Source of the DNA: Candidatus Acidiferrum sp.
GTDB lineage: Bacteria; Acidobacteriota; Terriglobia; Acidiferrales; UBA7541
DNA: 64,000 bases
Assembly: GCA_035996445.1 (NCBI GenBank)
Contig: DASYJM010000033.1
Span: 36,890-100,889 of the forward strand
Direction: 5' to 3'
Shown in pieces: positions 7,285-64,000 of this stretch (the first letter of the stretch is position 1; the number at the start of each line of letters is the position of its first letter). The notes under the pieces are model-generated. The model was not told where the DNA came from. It did no database searches and worked only from the letters and a program-made list of their open reading frames with translations. Made by a program: the position numbers and the translations under genes.

Positions 7285-7510
7285 GCACGAAACGGTAACA
7301 TATCCCTCAAACCCTGGTTGCACAGATTGTGCGCTCAAATCACAATCCCACCTTGCTGGACCGCGCACAAAAACCAATCAATGGACAAAGGCGGATTCTT
7401 ATCCTGGCACCGTGATAACGGCGTGCTAAACTTTTTTGACCGGGTGTTCGGCCCACAGCATTCGGTAAGCCTTTTTGGGTCTCGTATTCCGCTATCGAGC
7501 AATTTCCCTA

Positions 7511-8860
7511 ATGCCTAAATCACTCTTTGGCACCGACGGTATTCGCGGCATTCCGGGCACCCCGCCGCTCGACGATGCCACCTTGTTTGCCACCGGGCAC
7601 GCTCTCGGCGCTGATTTGCATCACGAACATTCCGCCGCCCGCGTTCTTATCGGCATGGATACCCGCGAATCTGGGCCGCACATTGCCGCCGTTCTTGCCG
7701 CCGGCCTCTCCGAAGCGCGCGCTTCGGTGGCTTTCGCCGGCGTTATCACCACCCCAGGAGTCGCCTGCTTGGTCCGCCAGAATGATTTTGAAGCTGGAGT
7801 GGTAATCTCAGCCTCCCACAATCCCTTTCATGACAATGGCGTAAAACTTTTTTCTCACGCGGGGATGAAATTTCCCGACGCGACAGAAGAAGTGTTGGAA
7901 CTGGAAATAATCAAGCATCGCGATAAAAATAAATCCGCACACATCTCCGCGCCGGCGCTCGTCGCCGATCAGTCGTTGGACGCGGAATACCTTACCTATT
8001 TGCGAGAGCGGATCATACCGGGCGCGAAATTGAATGGATTTCGCATGGTGATGGATTGCGCCAACGGTGCAGCCTTTAAACTTGGTCCCGAACTATTTCG
8101 CTCTCTTGGCGCGGAGGTAATCTCCATCGGTGACTCCCCGGATGGCCGGAACATCAACGCTGGTTGCGGTTCGCTGCACCTCGAAGGGCTTCGTAAACGC
8201 GTTCTTGCGGAAGGAGCCACTCTTGGGGTGGCTTTCGATGGCGATGCCGACCGGGCGCTATTTGTTTCCGCCGGTGGGCAAATCGTCAATGGCGATGGGG
8301 TCATGCTGGCCGTTGCACGCTATCTTAAATCTCAAAATAAGCTCAAAGGCAACCGGGTCGTCGGAACCTCGATGTCTAATTTAGGCTTGGAACGTGTGTT
8401 GTACGCGGAAAGCATCGCTCTAGCGCGTACCGACGTAGGTGATCGCTACGTCCTCGAAGAAATGTTACGCAGCGGGAGCGTGCTGGGCGGCGAGCAGTCC
8501 GGCCACATCATCTTCCTGGGCGACAGCCCGGCCGGCGATGGTCTACTAACCGCCCTCAAGATTGCTTCACTGGTTTCCATGAATGGCGGTCTCGCGGACT
8601 TAACCAAGGGATTGAAGGACTATCCGCAGACCATCGTGAATGTGAAGGTTCGTTCCAAACCTCCGCTCGATTCGCTCCCAGAGGTTTCGCGGGCCCTGTC
8701 CGACGCCAACACGGCGCTGGGCCAAAGTGGACGCATAGTTCTTCGATACTCGGGTACGGAGCCTCTCGCACGGGTAATGGTAGAAGCCGAACACGATTCG
8801 GATGTGCAACGGTTCAGTCAATCGCTGGCAGATGCTGTCCGTGCCTCTATCGGCGCGTAA
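7511..8860 (+). CDS. glmM: phosphoglucosamine mutase
   Basis: Motifs FGTDGIRG, VISASHNP (phospho-Ser loop), AFDGDADR, GGEQSGH and RYSGTEP. Start at ATG 7511. Confidence 0.95.
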   Translation: MPKSLFGTDGIRGIPGTPPLDDATLFATGHALGADLHHEHSAARVLIGMDTRESGPHIAAVLAAGLSEARASVAFAGVITTPGVACLVRQNDFEAGVVISASHNPFHDNGVKLFSHAGMKFPDATEEVLELEIIKHRDKNKSAHISAPALVADQSLDAEYLTYLRERIIPGAKLNGFRMVMDCANGAAFKLGPELFRSLGAEVISIGDSPDGRNINAGCGSLHLEGLRKRVLAEGATLGVAFDGDADRALFVSAGGQIVNGDGVMLAVARYLKSQNKLKGNRVVGTSMSNLGLERVLYAESIALARTDVGDRYVLEEMLRSGSVLGGEQSGHIIFLGDSPAGDGLLTALKIASLVSMNGGLADLTKGLKDYPQTIVNVKVRSKPPLDSLPEVSRALSDANTALGQSGRIVLRYSGTEPLARVMVEAEHDSDVQRFSQSLADAVRASIGA

Positions 8861-9192
8861 GCAACTCCGTCCTCTCGCAATTGAGTAGTCTCACGTGGTC
8901 CACAACTGGCCATCTGCTGAGTATTGCGCACAGATTAGTAAACTGGATTTCGCGAAATACACGAGCGCGAAGAAGCACGGAAATAACGATATTGTGAGTT
9001 TTGTCGTGAAAAAATTCATCACTGATTAAGGGCTTTCAGGTTTGAGCTGTTCCCAAACACCATAGAAGCCACTCGAAATTCTGTGAGATTTTGTAGGTTC
9101 TCGGGTGTTGTCACCGCTCTTTACGAAGCGCTTACTGAGCTAACGACGGTGTTTTCAACGAGTTTGGATTCAAATTTTTGTCGAGTGTTCGC

Positions 9193-9208
9193 TGGCACAA
9201 CAGTTGCT
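9193..9208 (+). promoter_or_regulatory. sigma-54 (-24/-12) promoter
   Basis: TGGCACAACAGTTGCT fully matches TGGCAC-N5-TTGCW. An IHF-like ATTCAAATTTTTG lies at 9168-9180. Confidence 0.75.
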
Positions 9209-9218
9209 CTTCTCTTGG

Positions 9219-9326
9219 CAACTTTAAAAAGATTGGCTTCCCGGGGTGGCCGGACCCGAACCTCGACTCGGTTTCCGGTTTTGGGGCGTCAATTTAAGAA
9301 GGGGGCTTGCACCAGCCCCCTTTTTT
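9219..9326 (+). ncRNA. candidate ~108-nt small RNA
   Basis: Lies between the sigma-54 promoter and an intrinsic terminator. Contains no ATG. Long stem-loop 9232-9293. Confidence 0.6.
9296..9326 (+). terminator. intrinsic terminator
   Basis: GGGGGCT-tgcacc-AGCCCCC followed by T6. Confidence 0.85.
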
Positions 9327-9532
9327 CATTTCTGATCTATTCCGCGATTCAAGGTCTGTCGGCCCAAAACCCGGCAGGGTTTACTTTCCGTTTCTGAATG
9401 TGGGTCGTTTTAGCGACCGAGTCCAGACTTAATATCCCGAACCCAAATCTATGCAGAATTACACCACGTCGGAATGACGCAGAGGTTTGATGTGAACGTC
9501 CCAGATTGCTTGACGCCAGGGAAAGGTACCCG

Positions 9533-9568
9533 AAAAAGGTGAGCGGCCGGTGGGGGTTCCGGCCGCTC
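9533..9568 (-). terminator. intrinsic terminator-like hairpin (minus strand)
   Basis: Perfect 10-bp stem GAGCGGCCGG/CCGGCCGCTC with an 8-nt loop, followed on the minus strand by ACC-TTTTT. Confidence 0.65.
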
Positions 9569-9715
9569 GGGCGTGGGGATGGAGGGAAACGTAATCCGAA
9601 GCTGTTCTTAACTTCCCGTCGCTATGCTGCGCTCGCGAGCAGCATCACGGCACACAGGAGCAGCCTTAACTGCTCCGGAAGTCGCGATCAACTTCCGATC
9701 ACAGTTGCGATTGTG
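9533..9715 (-). ncRNA. candidate structured RNA (5' end undefined)
   Basis: Three consecutive 7-bp stems (9624-9697), a C-rich tract TCCCTCCATCCCCA and a terminal hairpin. No credible ORF. Confidence 0.35.
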
Positions 9716-10007
9716 CTCTCCCTCCGCGTATCGGTCGATAGTTCCGCCGGTCCATCTCACCCGGTACTTTCCGCGTCATGCTTCCGTACCGTTCCACAGG
9801 TACCTTGGTACTGTCGCCCTGCCAACTCGAGAACGGCAATCGCTCGATCGCCGGTTTTCCACGCTTGCCCCATCGATGTGTATGAACTGTGTCTTCAACT
9901 GGGGTCCAGCCCCAGATGCTTTCCCGACGAATTTACCGGGCTCCGAGAGTTTTGAATAGCTTCATCTGCTCGCCACTTCCCACTGCGATACGTTATTCTT
10001 CCATCCC

Positions 10008-11297
10008 ATGCATGACCTGAGTTATTTTCGTGAGCACCTCGATCTTTTCGCGGACATGGCTGCCAAACGCGGCGCCACTCTTGATTTGGACGCTTTTCGC
10101 GCTCTCGACAAAGAACGTCGCGAGCTCATCACAAAAAACGAGCAGCGCAAAGCGCAACGCAACAAAGCCAGCGAGGAAATCGCGCGCCTGAAAAAAGAAA
10201 AACAGCCTGCCGATGCCATCATTTCGGAGATGAAGCAGTTCTCTGAACTCATCAAGCAATGCGACGAGCGCATTACCCAGCTGGATGACGCGCAACGCGA
10301 GCTGTTGCTTACAATTCCTAATATCCCTCATTCCAGTGTGCCGGTAGGTTCGGGCGCCGCGGACAATGTAGAAGTCCGCCGCTGGGGGGCGCCGCCACAG
10401 TTTGACTTCACTCCGCGTCCCCACTGGGAAGTCGGCGAGCGCGCGGGGATTTTAGATCTGTCGGCCGCCGCCAAAATCACCGGAGCGCGTTTCGCCGTAT
10501 ATAAAAGCTGGGGAGCACGCCTGGAACGCGCACTCGCAAATTTTTTCCTGGATGTACACACCCGCGAACACGGTTACACGGAAATTCTGCCGCCCTTTCT
10601 AGTGAATAGCACTTCACTCATGGGTTCCGGCCAATTACCGAAATTCGCTGCCGATCTCTTCAAAGTAGAGGGGACGGATTTCTGGCTTACCCCTACGTCA
10701 GAAGTCGAGCTTCACAATCTCTATCGCGACGAAACGCTAACGGAAAGCCAGCTTCCTATCTCCCTCACCGCTTGGACCGCTTGTTTCCGCTCCGAAGCAG
10801 GCGCCGCAGGGAAAGACACGCGCGGCATTCTCCGCCAACATCAGTTCCAAAAAGTTGAGCTTTTCAAATTTACCCATCCGGAAAAAAGTTACGAGGAACA
10901 CGAGGCTTTGGTTCGCAATGCAGAATCAATCCTTCAAAAACTCGGCCTCCACTATCGAACGGTGCTCCTCTGCACTGGAGACCTGGGCTTTGCCTCTGCA
11001 AAAACCTATGACATAGAAGTCTGGCTACCCTCTGCAAACGAATTTCGCGAAATCTCCTCCTGCTCAAATTGCGAGGCATTTCAAGCGCGTCGCGCGGGCA
11101 TCCGTTTTAAGCCAGCAAGTGGCGGCAAAAGTGATTTTGTACATACTCTCAATGGCTCTGGACTCGCCGTCGGGCGCACCTGGATCGCCATTATCGAGAA
11201 CCATCAGCAGCAAGACGGCTCGGTCGTAATCCCTGAAGCATTGCGACCATACATGGGCATCGACCGAATTCCGGCACTCCAGACGCCTAAGCGTTAG
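10008..11297 (+). CDS. serS: seryl-tRNA synthetase
   Basis: N-terminal coiled coil, motifs [35 protein letters not shown] and HTLNGSGLA. Confidence 0.97.
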
Positions 11298-52530: not shown

Positions 52531-54012
52531 ATGTCCGCAAAAGAAGTTAAAGAAAAAATTCTCGTCATCGATGACGAGCCCAGTATTCGAAAGTACCTGC
52601 AGACCCTTCTGGAAGTGGACGGCTTTGAGGTGGAAGCGGTCAGCTCCGGAAGAGAGGGCCTCGAAAAAATTACCGCTGGAGAGAGACCCGACTTCATCAT
52701 TCTCGACGTGCTGATGCCGGAACTTAGTGGTATTGAGACGCTCAAAGAACTGATGCAAATCGACCGCAGCTTGAACGTGATCATGCTGTCGTGCTCGAAC
52801 GAAGTTGGCACGGTGGTCGAGGCCATACGCATCGGAGCGCACGACTACCTGACCAAGCCTTTTGAAAAGACCGAGCTGGATGCAGCGATGCTGAAGTCGC
52901 GCCAGAAAAAACAACTGGTGACGGAAAATCTGGCGCTTCGCGATTACTGCGAACAAATCACCGAAGACATCAGTTTCCTGGCGGCCAGCCCGCAAATGGT
53001 GCGCATTCGTCAACAGATACTGCAGATCGCTCCCGTGGACGTGCCGGTTTTCATTTGCGGGGAAAGCGGAGTCGGCAAAGAAGTAGTGGCGCGTATGATT
53101 CATTTGCGGTCGAAGCGGCGCAGCCAACCTTTTATAAAAGTGAATTGCGCTGCCTTGCCCGGAGAACTGCTGGAATCGGAATTATTCGGTTTCGAGCAGG
53201 GGGCGTTTACAGGCGCGGTGCGGGCCAAGCCCGGCAAATTCGAAATGGCCAATAAAGGAACTATTTTCCTCGACGAAATCGCGGAGATGACCACGCATTT
53301 GCAGGCCAAACTTCTGCATGTCCTGCAAGACCATCAATACTCTCGGCTCGGCGGCCGTCATCTCGTCGAGACCGATGTACGCGTCTTGGCCGCCACTAAC
53401 GTCGACGTTCAGGAAGCAATGAAAACTGGACGGTTCCGGGAAGATCTTTACTACCGCTTGAACGTGCTATCGATAAATGTGCCGCCGCTGCGCGAGCGCA
53501 CTTCGGAAATTCCATTGTTGTTCCGTCATTTTCTTCAGAAGTATAGCGAGAAGTTCGGCAAGACGCCGCAAGGTCCCTCCAAGTATCTGTTGGATGCCGC
53601 GGTGAATTATCCGTGGCCAGGCAATTTGCGCGAACTGGAGAACTTTGTGAAGCGCTACGTCATCCTAGAGGATGACGAGGGTAGCTTGCGCGAACTGATA
53701 GAAATGTCTTCCGCGAGACAGCGTACTTCTCCGCGTGCGGAGCCTGTCGTGCATCGTGAGCCGCAAGGATTAAAGGCTCTTGTGCGTGGCCTGAAGGACG
53801 AAGCGGAGATGGAAGCGATTGCCGATGCGCTAGAGAAAACTCGGTGGTGCCGCAAGGATGCCGCGAAAATGTTAGGCATCAGTTACAAGGCGCTGCTGTA
53901 CAAAATGCGTCAGTTTAATCTGGACACACCGCGGACGAGGCGGGCCAGTGTGCCTGCGGCGGCAGCGGCTGAAGAACCTACGACCGTCGGAATAGGGGGC
54001 CGGAACGAGTAG
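52531..54012 (+). CDS. sigma-54-dependent response regulator (NtrC family)
   Basis: Receiver domain (VIDDE, ILDVLMP), GESGVGKE, GAFTGA, WPGNLREL and Fis-type HTH. Confidence 0.95.
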   Translation: MSAKEVKEKILVIDDEPSIRKYLQTLLEVDGFEVEAVSSGREGLEKITAGERPDFIILDVLMPELSGIETLKELMQIDRSLNVIMLSCSNEVGTVVEAIRIGAHDYLTKPFEKTELDAAMLKSRQKKQLVTENLALRDYCEQITEDISFLAASPQMVRIRQQILQIAPVDVPVFICGESGVGKEVVARMIHLRSKRRSQPFIKVNCAALPGELLESELFGFEQGAFTGAVRAKPGKFEMANKGTIFLDEIAEMTTHLQAKLLHVLQDHQYSRLGGRHLVETDVRVLAATNVDVQEAMKTGRFREDLYYRLNVLSINVPPLRERTSEIPLLFRHFLQKYSEKFGKTPQGPSKYLLDAAVNYPWPGNLRELENFVKRYVILEDDEGSLRELIEMSSARQRTSPRAEPVVHREPQGLKALVRGLKDEAEMEAIADALEKTRWCRKDAAKMLGISYKALLYKMRQFNLDTPRTRRASVPAAAAAEEPTTVGIGGRNE

Positions 54013-56114: not shown

Positions 56115-57215
56115 TTGGCGAATTGGATGCACTCTTCATGGCACCAGCCCATGGTCACCGCATCCACAACACGAGCTAATGACCCAAACTCGACCAACGC
56201 TCCTCCTCCGGACTACGTGCTTTTTGGGCGATCTGCGGCTATGAACGAAGTTCGACTTCGGGCCGAGAAGATATGTAGGACCAATATACCGGTTCTTCTT
56301 TGTGGGGCAGGGGGCACGGGGAAAGAGGCGATGGCCCAGTGGATTCACGCTCGATCCGCCTTTGGCCAAGGTCAGTTCATAAAGGTAAACTGCGCCGCGA
56401 TACCTGGCAATCTGCTGGAGAGTGAGCTCTTTGGCTATGAAAAAGGGGCATTTACTGGGGCACACGTTTCAAAGCCGGGCCGCGTGGAGCTGGCACACAA
56501 TGGCACGCTGTTTCTGGACGAGATCGCCGATCTGGAAATGGGACTGCAAAGCAAGATGCTGCACTTCCTGCAAGACGGCTGTTTTGCGCGTATCGGAGAT
56601 CGGACGGAACGAGCCGTGAACGTACGCGTAATTTGCGCTACTAATAAGGATCTAGAACAAGAAATTGCCTCCGGAAACTTTCGCTCAGACCTGTTTTACA
56701 GAATTAATGTAGTTCGCTTTCGTTTACCCAAGCTCTGTGAACGCAAAGAAGACATTCCCGTGTTGGCGGAATATTTCCGCAGCCTGCATGAAAAGCATTT
56801 CGCGATTCAGTCGAAACCGCTTAGCCCTGGAATAATCGAGTATTTGCAGAATGCCGATTGGCCCGGAAATGTGCGCGAGCTCTCCAACGGTATGGCTCGC
56901 CATGTCTTGATCGGGCCGGAGGCCTCCCTGGGCCAAACGGTCGCAGCCGAGCGGGGGTCCATCAAATCGCAAATCAAAGGGGCGGTCGGGGCCGTGCCTC
57001 TGAAACGCATCGCCAAGGCCGCAATACAGGAACTTGAGCGTAACGTAATTCTCGATTCCCTGCGCGCTCACCAGTGGAACAGGCGCAAAACCGCCGCCGC
57101 ACTTCAAATCAGCTATCGCGCACTAATCTATAAGATTCGAGATGCCGGATTGACTTCCCGGCGTCCGGCGCGGCCCTCGGATCGCCCCGAACAAAACCCT
57201 TTCGCAAAGTTGTAA
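56115..57215 (+). CDS. sigma-54 enhancer-binding protein lacking an N-terminal sensory domain
   Basis: GAGGTGKE, GAFTGA, LFLDEI, WPGNVREL and HTH. Start uncertain (TTG 56115 or ATG 56151). Confidence 0.92.
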   Translation: MANWMHSSWHQPMVTASTTRANDPNSTNAPPPDYVLFGRSAAMNEVRLRAEKICRTNIPVLLCGAGGTGKEAMAQWIHARSAFGQGQFIKVNCAAIPGNLLESELFGYEKGAFTGAHVSKPGRVELAHNGTLFLDEIADLEMGLQSKMLHFLQDGCFARIGDRTERAVNVRVICATNKDLEQEIASGNFRSDLFYRINVVRFRLPKLCERKEDIPVLAEYFRSLHEKHFAIQSKPLSPGIIEYLQNADWPGNVRELSNGMARHVLIGPEASLGQTVAAERGSIKSQIKGAVGAVPLKRIAKAAIQELERNVILDSLRAHQWNRRKTAAALQISYRALIYKIRDAGLTSRRPARPSDRPEQNPFAKL

Positions 57216-63255: not shown

Positions 63256-63652
63256 ATTGTTCTAAGCGGTTCCCACCGCCCTACCAGCAATTTATCCTCC
63301 TCGAATACCAAATAGAAGGGTAACTTCAGAATACGGTCCAGGGTTAGTCATTAAGCCCTTTAGACCAGCGGGGGCCGGGACAAAGCAGCCACAATATGGC
63401 ACAACAGTTCCACTCTCTGCGGCTGTCTATCTAGCAGGCCAAATGCGCTCCTAAGAATATAATCTCGGCCAGCTTAAGCCTATGATATAATTGGTCTTAG
63501 CAACAAATGAACGGTCCGTATCTGGGAGCCCGGGACGACCGGGTTGGCATGATGGGTGCATCGTATAGAGCGACAACACACCACGGGTCCTACAGTGTAT
63601 TATAGGCTTCCCCGTAATTTGAGCGCTCAGGAAGAAATCTAAAGAGGTAGAC

Positions 63653-64000
63653 ATGGCTCCAAATCGCGAGCTGAATGCGACAGACGCAAAACGAGTTTTG
63701 AGGCGTTACTGGTGGATACTGCCCATCAGCACCGTCCTGTTGACCACCGTGGCTTGGGTTGCCGCCAACGTGCTGCCCAAGCGTTATAGCTCGCAGACCA
63801 CGGTGCTAGTGGAGCAGCCATCCGTGTCTTCGAAATATGTCGATCCGGTCGTTTCTGATGACTTGAATCACCGGCTGGCGACCATGCAGGAACAGATTTT
63901 GAGCCGGTCACGTCTGCAGCCGATTATCGAAAAGGTGGGCCTTTATCCCGAAGACCAGGGTCGGGCGCCCATCGATGACCAGGTGGAAAGATTGCGCAGC
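63653..64000 (+). CDS. polysaccharide chain-length determinant / co-polymerase (Wzz/GumC family), 3'-partial
   Basis: Not in the ORF track. Translated by hand: MAPNRELNATDAKRVLRRYWWILPISTVLLTTVAWVAANVLPKRYSSQTTVLVE...QILSRSRLQPIIEK. SD GAGG. Confidence 0.85.
   Translation, partial: MAPNRELNATDAKRVLRRYWWILPISTVLLTTVAWVAANVLPKRYSSQTTVLVEQPSVSSKYVDPVVSDDLNHRLATMQEQILSRSRLQPIIEKVGLYPEDQGRAPIDDQVERLRS

What the first reader, a model, noticed from the sequence alone, without database searches (positions are those of the whole stretch)
9168..9326. Complete sigma-54 transcription unit with no ORF: candidate novel small RNA downstream of glmM
Seen: a consensus TGGCACAACAGTTGCT (9193-9208) with an IHF-like site (9168-9180) and about 300 bp of non-coding upstream DNA. 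It is followed by ~108 nt without ATG that folds into one long stem-loop (9232-9242 with 9283-9293, inner 9250-9278) and ends in a GC hairpin plus T6. Known: sigma-54 sRNAs exist (enterobacterial GlmY in amino-sugar control, Myxococcus Pxr). Inference: an unannotated sRNA, possibly controlled by the enhancer-binding proteins at 52-57 kb. The position next to glmM may be coincidental.
Basis: partly seen in the sequence, partly recalled or inferred. Interest (0 to 1): 0.75.

Follow-up and report, generated by a model that had tools for sequence, protein, structure and literature searches.

The report
Sigma-54-driven small RNA after glmM
A roughly 105-base non-coding RNA gene with its own sigma-54 promoter and terminator sits just after glmM, is conserved across an uncultured order of soil Acidobacteria and is abundant in a soil metatranscriptome; it is a new family of a known kind of regulator, and its targets are unknown.

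Summary

- **Promoter:** TGGCACAACAGTTGCT (9193-9208) is the only exact sigma-54 consensus in the window.
- **Structure:** It is followed by a hairpin and an intrinsic terminator (9219-9326).
- **Conservation:** The unit recurs in about 140 loci of Acidoferrales-type MAGs and soil metagenomes. The -24/-12 box is kept in 101 of 104 sequences picked only by the RNA. Two helices covary, and the core UCCCGGGGUGG is invariant even in divergent members.
- **Not coding:** ORF 9083-9397 is open in only 2 of 112 homologues.
- **Expression:** In a soil metatranscriptome the RNA is 10-20 times deeper than its flanks, and depth falls to zero after the terminator. DNA runs cover the region evenly.
- **Database:** No Rfam family matches.

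- The proposed IHF site (9168-9180) is not conserved. Other upstream boxes at fixed distances are.
- Linkage to glmM is conserved, not coincidental.
- Nothing links the window's activator genes at 52-57 kb to this RNA.

The RNA is usually paired with a convergent small hydrophobic-peptide gene (9531-9830, minus strand). Targets and mechanism remain inferred. It is a new member of a known kind.

The parts
8982..8993 (.). Palindromic box AATAACGATATT (AATAACG[A/T]TATT), 210-243 nt upstream of the -24 box in relatives. Candidate regulator-binding site.
   Evidence: k-mer position analysis and alignment of 121 unique upstream regions; found upstream of the RNA in 55 loci. Function is inferred.
9050..9065 (.). 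Upstream box A, TTCCCAAACACCATAG (consensus CTCCCAAAGAATGKAG), at a fixed -143 from the -24 box. Candidate enhancer (activator-binding) site.
   Evidence: Present at a fixed distance in about 80-90 of 121 unique sequences, including divergent members. No conserved hairpin. Function is inferred.
9078..9097 (.). Upstream box B, ATTCTGTGAGATTTTGTAGG (consensus TCTGTGRGATTTTGTAG), at a fixed -115 to -96. It ends in GTAG like box A, about 32 nt (three helical turns) away. Candidate enhancer site.
   Evidence: Found in 124 loci, always upstream of the RNA, with 0 other sites in about 1.5 Mb of loci.
9139..9159 (.). Conserved GCTAAC-N7-GTTTTCAA box, 54-34 nt upstream of the -24 box, where a DNA-bending protein site would be expected.
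   Evidence: Column identity 0.8-0.9 in 104 sequences; TA(A/T) kept in divergent members. A role in DNA bending is inferred.
9193..9208 (+). Sigma-54 promoter: -24 TGGCAC and -12 TTGCT.
   Evidence: Only exact consensus match in the window. TGGCA[CAT]-N5-[TG]TGC is present 40-42 nt upstream of GGCTTCCC in 101 of 104 sequences selected only by the RNA pattern, and in all divergent homologues.
9219..9326 (+). The small RNA (about 105-108 nt). The start near 9219 is predicted from the -12 GC at 9206-9207. The end is the T run at 9321-9326.
   Evidence: cmsearch 122.8 bits. Metatranscriptome depth is 161-288 against 13 upstream and 0 downstream, while DNA runs are flat. One 99-nt RNA contig spans 9229-9325. 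The 5' end is not mapped.
9233..9292 (+). Main hairpin: outer stem 9233-9237/9288-9292, CCC:GGG clamp 9240-9242/9284-9286, middle stem 9251-9253/9275-9277, apical stem 9256-9259/9268-9271.
   Evidence: RNAalifold and pair counts: 98.8% of cells paired, 84 double-change cells against 24 in shuffles, and slid controls collapse. Helices 2 and 3 covary. Divergent members have the same architecture.
9239..9249 (+). Invariant core UCCCGGGGUGG. CCC is paired and GGGGUGG lies in a weakly paired internal loop. This is the only RNA segment kept across the whole order.
   Evidence: Invariant in the 12 genome loci found independently of the pattern and in the divergent homologues. Unpaired probability is 0.0 for CCC and 0.6-0.84 for GGU.
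9260..9267 (+). Apical loop ACCUCGAC, containing the anti-Shine-Dalgarno-like CCUC. It is fully exposed. It is invariant in the close family but different in divergent members.
   Evidence: unpaired probability 0.9-1.0. A seed role is inferred.
9298..9326 (+). Intrinsic terminator: GAAGGGGGCT / AGCCCCCTTT plus a T run.
   Evidence: Terminator scan. The stem is invariant. RNA depth falls to 0 after about 9340. There is no other + strand terminator between the glmM stop and this one.
9531..9830 (-). Convergent partner ('element 2'), a small hydrophobic-peptide gene. Parts: terminator 9568..9541, C-rich 3' UTR 9586..9569 (CCCUCCAUCCCCACGCCC), ORF remnant 9663..9622 (truncated here, with no canonical start), and conserved upstream boxes at 9691-9702 and 9734-9741.
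   Evidence: Found 55-430 nt downstream of the RNA in 100 of 133 loci. Peptides such as MIVGILILCVVLLLASAVERPTPPEQ show synonymous changes between loci. It is transcribed in X24. No known family matches. It is absent from divergent lineages.
7511..8860 (+). glmM (phosphoglucosamine mutase-type PGM/PMM protein), the conserved upstream neighbour. Its transcripts appear to run on to the small RNA's terminator.
   Evidence: Pfam; synteny. RNA contigs span 8725-9013 and 8984-9233 at about 10x, while 9380-9519 has 0.

Best explanation
This is a genuine, independently transcribed small regulatory RNA gene. RNA polymerase carrying sigma-54 binds the -24/-12 box at 9193-9208. An enhancer-binding protein, probably bound at the conserved upstream boxes (9050-9097, perhaps 8982-9993... 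see parts: 8982-8993) with a bend at 9139-9159, opens the promoter. Transcription starts near 9219 and stops at the terminator at 9298-9326. The product is a 105-108-nt RNA: a short A/U-rich 5' tail, one long interrupted hairpin, an A/U-rich linker and a terminator with a U tail. The same terminator also ends glmM read-through transcripts, so the RNA sits in the glmM 3' region but has its own, much stronger, conditional promoter. Shown here: the sequence features, their conservation, the covariation, the absence of coding potential, RNA abundance bounded by the terminator, and synteny with glmM. Inferred: the RNA acts in trans as a riboregulator. It would use the exposed apical loop ACCUCGAC (anti-Shine-Dalgarno-like, close family only), the order-wide invariant G-rich internal loop GGGGUGG held by the CCC:GGG clamp, or both. 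It would pair with mRNAs or dock a protein. Its regulon would concern the cell envelope or amino sugars, given its persistent linkage to glmM and to an ECF sigma / anti-sigma (DUF4349) pair. My probabilities: about 0.85-0.9 that this is a real sigma-54 small RNA gene, about 0.45 that it works by base-pairing, and about 0.25-0.3 that it serves envelope or amino-sugar control.
For: Promoter: unique exact consensus; kept in 101 of 104 sequences chosen by the RNA pattern alone, at a fixed 40-42 nt distance; kept in 12 divergent homologues in which most of the RNA sequence has changed. Upstream boxes at fixed distances, with box B in 124 loci and nowhere else. Structure: 6 pairs show double changes, 84 double-change cells against 24 +/- 3.4 in shuffles (0 of 500), paired cells 98.8% against 38-66% when slid; divergent members have the same fold. 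Non-coding: the window ORF is open in 2 of 112 homologues, and the core-to-terminator length mod 3 splits 40/36/24. Expression: metatranscriptome X24 depth is 161-288 over the RNA against 13 upstream and 0-1 at 9380-9519. DNA runs X1, X3 and X5 are flat, with only 1.4-3.5x inflation over the conserved RNA. RNA contigs of homologues occur in three further metatranscriptomes. Synteny: glmM lies upstream on the same strand in 76 loci; the nearest upstream gene is glmM (37), DUF4349/anti-sigma (33) or ECF sigma (1) in 71 of 71 informative loci; the RNA follows glmM in a rearranged lineage. No Rfam match.
Against: No strand-specific or 5'-end data exist: all RNA runs are assembler contigs without direction, and contig depth is a poor measure. 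The start at 9219 is therefore predicted, not seen. Contig breaks at 9226-9229 coincide with the variable/conserved boundary and say nothing about the 5' end. Dependence on rpoN and on an activator is untested, and the activator is unidentified. No target was found: there is no pairing signal with the glmM start region (z = 0.16), no recurrent complementary site within +/-5 kb, and no enrichment of loop complements at gene starts in the window. The apical loop is not conserved in divergent members, and the invariant core is partly paired. A protein-binding role is therefore as compatible with the data as base-pairing. The pattern used for the metagenome scan forces invariance of the core and loop in L081-L200. 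Only the 12 + 12 genome loci test those segments independently.
Confidence: 0.72

Rival explanations
1. It is a protein-binding RNA (decoy, sponge or scaffold, as GlmY is for RapZ or CrcZ for Hfq) rather than a base-pairing regulator. The invariant UCCCGGGGUGG internal loop with its CCC:GGG clamp would be a protein-docking site. The promoter and gene boundaries are the same as in the best explanation.
For: The only segment conserved across the whole order is a partly paired internal loop held by a clamp, not a free 5' seed. No mRNA target was found.
Against: There is one copy of the motif per RNA, whereas known sponges carry several. No candidate partner protein is linked to it. Only +/-5 kb per genome could be searched for targets, so failing to find one is weak evidence.
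Confidence: 0.15
2. It is only the structured 3' end of the glmM (or anti-sigma) mRNA. The abundant fragment would come from processing and protection by the terminator hairpin, and the TGGCA..TGC box would not be an active promoter.
For: There is no terminator between the glmM stop and 9296. Low-level RNA contigs run from glmM into the RNA. 3'-UTR-derived small RNAs are common (established knowledge).
Against: The GG and GC dinucleotides and their spacing are kept in 101 of 104 sequences while the bases between them vary, which is the signature of a sigma-54 box and not of an RNA helix. A set of boxes sits at fixed distances upstream. RNA depth jumps 10-20 fold at the box. The unit stays intact when the upstream gene differs.
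Confidence: 0.06
3. It is the RNA partner of the convergent small hydrophobic-peptide gene (9531-9830, minus strand): a type I toxin-antitoxin-like or two-RNA module in which the small RNA controls the peptide mRNA, or its C-rich 3' UTR.
For: The two are neighbours in 100 of 133 loci in a fixed convergent arrangement. The peptide is short and hydrophobic. GGGGUGG could pair with CCAUCCCC in the partner's 3' UTR, with one bulge (read from the sequence).
Against: The transcripts do not overlap: terminators face each other 55-430 nt apart, and 1.4-3.2 kb apart in some loci. The partner is absent from the divergent lineages and from the sub-lineage with an activator gene upstream of glmM, all of which keep the RNA and its core. 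In this window the peptide ORF is truncated yet the RNA is intact. Duplex prediction gave no specific, conserved site.
Confidence: 0.05
4. It is a small protein-coding gene (ORF 9083-9397 or another frame), or a riboswitch/attenuator for a downstream gene.
For: A 104-aa ORF spans it in this window. Hairpin plus terminator resembles an attenuator.
Against: The ORF is open in 2 of 112 homologues and frame-breaking indels are common. There is no ATG inside the RNA. The next gene downstream is convergent, so there is nothing to attenuate. No riboswitch family matches.
Confidence: 0.02

Closest known systems
GlmY / GlmZ of Enterobacterales (Rfam RF00128, RF00083)
   Same: A small RNA transcribed from a sigma-54 promoter with upstream activator sites and a bend site, ending in an intrinsic terminator, and genomically tied to amino-sugar metabolism (here glmM; there control of glmS). 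In one sub-lineage an activator gene lies next to it, as glrK-glrR lies next to glmY.
   Different: No sequence or structure match. It has one long hairpin plus terminator in about 105 nt, not three stem-loops in 150-200 nt. There is no TGTC-N10-GACA (GlrR-type) site upstream. It is a single gene, not a decoy/effector pair. Its target is unknown and glmS could not be examined. The phylum is different.
Pxr of Myxococcus and Qrr1-5 of Vibrio
   Same: RNAs of about 100 nt whose transcription depends on sigma-54 and an NtrC-type activator, each with a terminator. They are clade-restricted regulators switched on by a signalling pathway (my own knowledge of these families).
   Different: No Rfam hit to either family. 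The fold is different. There is no adjacent two-component system in most loci. The biology (development, quorum sensing) has no visible counterpart here.
3'-region small RNAs with their own promoter (DapZ, MicL type)
   Same: The RNA lies in the 3' region of a protein gene on the same strand, shares that gene's terminator, and has an internal promoter read by an alternative sigma factor (sigma-E for MicL, sigma-54 here).
   Different: The promoter lies in a 330-nt non-coding spacer, not inside the coding sequence. It comes with a full enhancer-like upstream region. The unit stays intact when other genes are inserted between it and glmM.
CrcZ / NrsZ of Pseudomonas
   Same: Sigma-54-dependent small RNAs activated by CbrB or NtrC (my own knowledge).
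   Different: CrcZ works through repeated A-rich Hfq/Crc-binding motifs. There are no repeated motifs here, and no similarity was found.

Membership tests
Sigma-54-dependent promoter | GG at -24 and GC at -12, 10 bases apart, within TGGCAC-N5-TTGCW | tested here: met
   Exact match at 9193-9208; 0.09 expected. Conserved in 101 of 104 sequences chosen by the RNA alone and in divergent homologues.
Sigma-54-dependent promoter | Upstream activator-binding sites about 100-200 nt upstream, with room for DNA looping | tested here: inconclusive
   Conserved boxes lie at fixed distances (-143, -115, -54/-41, and about -210 to -243) and are specific to this promoter. That an activator binds them is not shown.
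Sigma-54-dependent promoter | Transcription requires rpoN and an ATP-hydrolysing enhancer-binding protein | not testable with these tools
   Activator genes exist in the window, and a conserved 312-aa sensor-less one exists in the clade. None can be assigned to this promoter.
Trans-acting small RNA with intrinsic terminator (Hfq-type architecture) | Independent transcript of 50-300 nt with a G+C-rich terminator hairpin, a U tail and a preceding A/U-rich stretch | tested here: met
   Terminator 9298-9326 with T6, preceded by AAUUUAAGAA. RNA abundance is bounded at about 9330.
Trans-acting small RNA with intrinsic terminator (Hfq-type architecture) | A conserved accessible seed that pairs with target mRNAs | tested here: inconclusive
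   Candidates are the apical loop ACCUCGAC (unpaired 0.9-1.0, close family only) and GGGGUGG (order-wide, unpaired 0.2-0.84). No target was found in the DNA at hand.
GlmY / GlmZ | Match to the Rfam covariance models RF00128 / RF00083 | tested here: not met
   No hit at gathering score in the window, and none at E<=10 in 8800-10100.
GlmY / GlmZ | GlrR-type TGTC-N10-GACA sites upstream | tested here: not met
   No match with <=1 mismatch between 8860 and 9193.
GlmY / GlmZ | Pairing with the glmS leader, or binding to RapZ | not testable with these tools
   glmS is absent from the window and from all Acidobacterial loci held.
Pxr, Qrr and any other described RNA family | Match to an Rfam 15 model | tested here: not met
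   0 gathering-level matches in 64 kb. Only chance-level hits (E 0.6-4) in the region.
Type I toxin-antitoxin pair (with the convergent peptide gene) | The antitoxin RNA overlaps the toxin mRNA or has extended complementarity to it | tested here: not met
   The transcripts are separated by facing terminators and a variable 55-430 nt spacer. No specific conserved duplex was found. The partner is missing in lineages that keep the RNA.
Small protein gene | Reading frame conserved among homologues | tested here: not met
   Open in 2 of 112; all three length classes mod 3 occur.

The most novel reading that the evidence does not exclude
The RNA could be an independently evolved functional counterpart of enterobacterial GlmY/GlmZ: a sigma-54-controlled riboregulator physically locked to glmM across a whole order of Acidobacteria. 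It would tune amino-sugar or cell-envelope precursor supply, for instance glmS, glmU or murein genes. It might be driven by the clade's conserved sensor-less activator encoded in the obgE-nadD-rsfS-(activator)-rlmH operon, which would tie envelope synthesis to growth and ribosome status. My evidence does not exclude this. Conserved synteny, travel with glmM on rearrangement, and frequent insertion of an ECF sigma / anti-sigma envelope-signalling pair at the same spot are what suggest it.
Probability: 0.2. Interest if true: 0.7.

Novelty: new member of a known kind. Interest (0 to 1): 0.55.

Why it matters
Acidobacteria of this order are abundant in soils but uncultured, and almost nothing is known about their RNA regulators. 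Rfam has no match for this one. This is a compact, well-delimited, highly conserved and demonstrably transcribed small RNA. It has a complete sigma-54 control region: a promoter, promoter-specific upstream boxes and a terminator. That gives three things:
- a ready covariance model for annotating MAGs;
- a testable promoter/enhancer pair for identifying the cognate activator and its signal;
- a possible case of convergent evolution with GlmY/GlmZ.

If it proves to be only a clade-specific riboregulator, it remains a useful addition to the short list of sigma-54-dependent small RNAs outside Proteobacteria.

Tried and rejected
- **Rfam:** Searched at gathering score (whole window) and at E<=10 (8800-10100). 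Only chance hits appeared: ctRNA_pGA1, which is really the minus-strand terminator at 9541-9568, and U8, snoR144 and sX14.
- **Full-length duplex prediction** between the RNA and the convergent peptide mRNA gave long, meaningless duplexes at different places in each locus. Rejected as uninformative.
- **Complement of the invariant core** (8-mers of GGCCACCCCGGGAAGCC) within +/-5 kb in 138 loci: no recurrent site. One 10-of-11 match lies inside glmM at 7749-7759, but it is coding sequence and was not pursued.
- **Pairing with the glmM start region** in 54 loci: no better than shuffles (mean z = 0.16).
- **Complements of the apical loop** near gene starts in the window: 138 six-mers against 156 expected, and nothing convincing.
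- **glmS:** A probe written from memory found it only in Firmicutes-type loci, so the glmS-leader test could not be run.
- **Upstream boxes A/B as an RNA hairpin or terminator:** the arms are not compensated (for example GTGGGA to GTGAGA with no partner change) and the minimum-energy folds differ between loci. I therefore read them as DNA sites.
- **The activator next to glmM in five loci as the obvious cognate regulator:** its orthologues normally sit in a ribosome-related operon without glmM, so the adjacency may be a by-product of rearrangement. It remains only a candidate.
- **Contig starts at 9226-9229 as a transcription start:** rejected. Unitigs break where strain-variable sequence meets conserved sequence.
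- **The metatranscriptome peak as an artefact of many strains collapsing on conserved sequence:** checked with DNA runs. That inflation is only 1.4-3.5 fold, and DNA covers the spacer where RNA is zero.
Full report
**What is in the sequence**

- The window carries TGGCACAACAGTTGCT at 9193-9208. It is the only exact match to the sigma-54 consensus TGGCAC-N5-TTGCW on either strand of the 64 kb, where shuffles give 0.09.
- Counting 12 bases from the C of the -12 GC (9207) puts the predicted start at about 9219.
- From 9219 to 9326 there is no ATG. The RNA folds at -49 kcal/mol (z = -3.3) into a long interrupted hairpin followed by a G+C-rich hairpin and a T run. The consensus scan calls the latter a terminator at 9296-9325.
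- glmM (four PGM/PMM domains) ends at 8860 and serS begins at 10008. The unit therefore sits in a 1.15-kb spacer.

**Who has it**

- A scan of one genome per species with the GlmM protein showed that the window belongs to the uncultured Acidobacterial order labelled Candidatus Acidiferrales / Acidoferrum. The best GlmM identity is 78-79%.
- BLAST of the spacer against these loci found just two conserved islands: 9190-9333 and 9533-9662. Twelve genomes carry them, and the rest of the spacer is not conserved.
- A covariance model built from 98 unique RNAs then found twelve much more divergent copies. All lie on the same strand, 180-2000 nt after glmM, in genomes whose GlmM is only 60-67% identical (E from 6e-7 to 0.2).
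- Other Acidobacterial orders in the set gave nothing.
- There is one copy per locus and one in the window.

**The promoter is conserved as a promoter**

- Take the 104 unique sequences selected only by the RNA pattern. Of these, 101 carry TGGCA[C/A/T]-N5-[T/G]TGC at 40-42 nt upstream of GGCTTCCC.
- The bases between the two elements vary freely.
- The divergent homologues keep TGGCA and TGC even though most of the RNA sequence differs.
- Further upstream there are boxes at fixed distances from the -24 element:
  - CTCCCAAAGAATGKAG at -143 (window 9050-9065);
  - TCTGTGRGATTTTGTAG at -115 to -96 (9078-9097);
  - GCTAAC...GTTTCAA at -54 to -34 (9139-9159);
  - a palindrome AATAACG(A/T)TATT at about -210 to -243 (8982-8993).
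- Box B occurs in 124 loci and nowhere else in about 1.5 Mb of collected DNA.
- Boxes A and B both end in GTAG about three helical turns apart. Their changes are not compensated and their predicted folds differ between loci. I read them as protein-binding DNA, most simply the enhancer, although binding is not shown.

**The RNA is structured and non-coding**

- RNAalifold on the 98 sequences gives four helices.
- Pair counting shows 98.8% of cells paired, against 38-66% when partners are slid.
- Six pairs have changes on both sides. There are 84 double-change cells against 24 +/- 3.4 in shuffles (0 of 500).
- The covariation lies in the middle and apical stems. For example, pair 40/51 is GC in 53 sequences, CG in 36, UA in 6 and UG in 3.
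- The outer stem and the terminator vary on one side only or not at all, so they are neither supported nor contradicted by covariation.
- The divergent homologues replace the outer stem wholesale (AUUGGC/GUCAAU becomes CUCU/AGAG) but fold into the same architecture.
- Across the whole order the only invariant RNA segment is UCCCGGGGUGG (9239-9249). Its CCC pairs with a downstream GGG, and GGGGUGG sits in a weakly paired internal loop with unpaired probability up to 0.84.
- The apical loop ACCUCGAC (9260-9267) is fully exposed and invariant in the close family, but different elsewhere.
The core-to-terminator distance falls in all three classes mod 3 (40/36/24). It is not a gene.

**It is transcribed**

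- Public soil metatranscriptomes hold the sequence. Only assembler contigs are available, so there is no strand information and depth is crude.
- A DNA control makes the pattern interpretable. Three DNA runs cover 8330-10429 evenly, including the spacer at 9380-9519. They show only a 1.4-3.5-fold rise over the RNA, which is the effect of several strains collapsing on conserved sequence.
- In metatranscriptome X24:
  - depth is 13-24 over the glmM 3' end and 11-47 over the upstream spacer;
  - depth is 161 and 288 over the two bins that hold the RNA;
  - depth is 0 and 1.1 over 9380-9519;
  - depth rises again over the convergent element and serS.
- A 99-nt contig of depth 115 spans 9229-9325.
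- The zero after the terminator shows that the run is not DNA-dominated and that transcripts end where the terminator predicts.
- Low-depth RNA contigs that join glmM to the RNA (8725-9013 and 8984-9233), together with the absence of any other + strand terminator after glmM, suggest that glmM transcripts also end at this terminator.
- Contig starts at 9189-9200 and 9226-9229 coincide with boundaries between variable and conserved sequence. They do not map the 5' end.
- Three further metatranscriptomes contain homologous contigs.

**Genomic company**

- glmM lies upstream on the same strand in 76 loci and serS lies downstream in 44.
- In all 71 loci with more than 2.5 kb of upstream DNA, the nearest upstream gene is one of three kinds: glmM (37), a DUF4349 protein or zf-HC2 anti-sigma-DUF4349 fusion (33), or its ECF sigma factor (1). 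The last two kinds are inserted between glmM and the RNA.
- In one sub-lineage glmM has moved behind an obgE-nadD-rsfS-(activator) operon, and the RNA moved with it. serS and the convergent element did not.
- Linkage to glmM is therefore conserved, not coincidental. Whether it is functional is unknown.
- The activator in that sub-lineage is a 312-aa AAA+ plus HTH_8 protein with no sensor domain. It is very well conserved: 120 clusters at 80-94% identity.
- Elsewhere this activator sits in the same ribosome-related operon, followed by rlmH and not glmM. It is a candidate activator and no more.
- It is only 37-41% identical to the two activators in the window at 52531-54012 and 56115-57215. Those belong to a cluster with a histidine kinase, PilZ, GGDEF and polysaccharide genes.

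**The second conserved island**

- In 100 of 133 loci the RNA is followed, 55-430 nt downstream, by a convergent unit on the minus strand.
- That unit comprises conserved upstream boxes, a small ORF for a hydrophobic peptide, a C-rich 3' UTR (CCCUCCAUCCCCACGCCC) and a strong terminator (window 9568..9541).
- Typical peptides are MIVGILILCVVLLLASAVERPTPPEQ and MVIGCLLLCVVLLLASAAGQPAPRPVRDEEAN. Third-codon-position changes between loci are synonymous.
- In this window and its nearest relatives the ORF has lost its canonical start and its tail.
- The unit is transcribed, matches no protein family, and is absent from the divergent lineages and from the sub-lineage with the activator gene beside glmM.
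- It is a frequent neighbour of the RNA but not an obligatory partner.

**How it most likely works**

- Shown: a conserved sigma-54 box with promoter-specific upstream boxes; a covarying hairpin; a terminator; no coding potential; RNA abundance bounded by the terminator; synteny with glmM.
- Inferred: an activator bound upstream switches on a roughly 105-nt RNA that acts in trans.
- Two sites are candidates for function. One is the exposed, anti-Shine-Dalgarno-like apical loop, found in the close family only. The other is the order-wide invariant G-rich internal loop.
- I could not find a target in the DNA available, and glmS was not within reach. A protein-docking role for the invariant loop is a serious rival.
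- An envelope or amino-sugar role is suggested only by the genomic company the RNA keeps.

**Comparison with known systems**

- The RNA works like the known sigma-54 small RNAs: GlmY/GlmZ, Qrr, Pxr, CrcZ and NrsZ. It also resembles 3'-region small RNAs that have their own alternative-sigma promoter (MicL, DapZ).
- It is not a member of any of these families. No Rfam model matches, there are no GlrR-type sites, and the fold and size differ.
- Full-text searches found no description of such an RNA in Acidobacteria.
- I class it as a new member of a known kind.

**Verdict**

- Interest is moderate. This is a clean, well-supported new RNA family with a complete sigma-54 control region in an abundant, uncultured soil lineage. 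The kind is known, however, and the function is still open.

Noticed in passing
window 9531-9830 (minus strand); e.g. L001:8052-8368, L112, L166: A conserved small gene lies convergent to the RNA. It encodes a 24-35-aa hydrophobic peptide (M[IV][IV]x[CI]LLLCVVLLLASA[AV]E[RQ]P...), followed by a C-rich 3' UTR with a CCUCC motif and a strong terminator. It matches no known family. In this window the ORF lacks a canonical start and ends right after ...LLASAA.
   Followed up: partly
window 9745-9830 (minus-strand upstream region of the peptide gene): Four copies of a GTAC-centred motif (AGTACC, GGTACC, GGTACG, AGTACC) are clustered upstream of the peptide gene. Relatives keep CAGTAC and GGTAC boxes there. 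This may be a regulator-binding array.
   Followed up: no
L001:5169-7471, L003:5365-8519, L016:5995-7248, L020:5835-7136: In about half of the loci an ECF sigma factor, a zf-HC2 anti-sigma factor fused to DUF4349, and sometimes a second DUF4349 protein are inserted between glmM and the small RNA. They are on the same strand, so the RNA then lies in the 3' region of the anti-sigma gene.
   Followed up: partly
L201:6001-6939, L202:6001-6939, L203:6001-6936 (proteins P0001-P0120): A very conserved 311-313-aa sigma-54 activator with no sensor domain is encoded inside the rplU-rpmA-obgE-nadD-rsfS-(activator)-rlmH operon of this clade. That is an unusual home for an enhancer-binding protein. In one sub-lineage glmM and the small RNA follow it directly.
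   Followed up: partly
window 50995-50980 (minus strand) and 63545-63561 (plus strand): There are two further sigma-54-like boxes. TGGCACTAAAGATGCT lies about 40 nt upstream of a PilZ gene (50941-50591). TGGCATGATGGGTGCAT lies about 90 nt upstream of a chain-length-determinant-like gene starting at 63653. Both are beside the histidine kinase / activator / PilZ / GGDEF cluster at 49-57 kb. TGGCACAACAGTTCCA at 63397 shares 13 bases with the small-RNA promoter but lacks the GC.
   Followed up: no
window 9940-10150: The serS leader and first codons have very high metatranscriptome depth (335-365 against 11-19 in DNA runs). That is higher than the small RNA and much higher than the rest of serS (16-30). 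It could be a stable 5' fragment or an attenuated leader.
   Followed up: no
window 7424-7432: TGCTAAACT lies upstream of glmM and is conserved in relatives (GTGCTAAAC). It looks like an extended -10 element of the housekeeping promoter of glmM.
   Followed up: no
window 7749-7759: CCACCCCAGGA inside glmM is complementary to 10 of the 11 bases of the invariant core UCCCGGGGUGG. It lies about 240 nt into the coding sequence, in a conserved peptide motif. It is probably chance.
   Followed up: no
window 1-64000: No Rfam family reaches its gathering score anywhere in the 64 kb, although the window holds thrS-infC-rplT-pheST, pyr genes, serS and thiamine genes.
   Followed up: no
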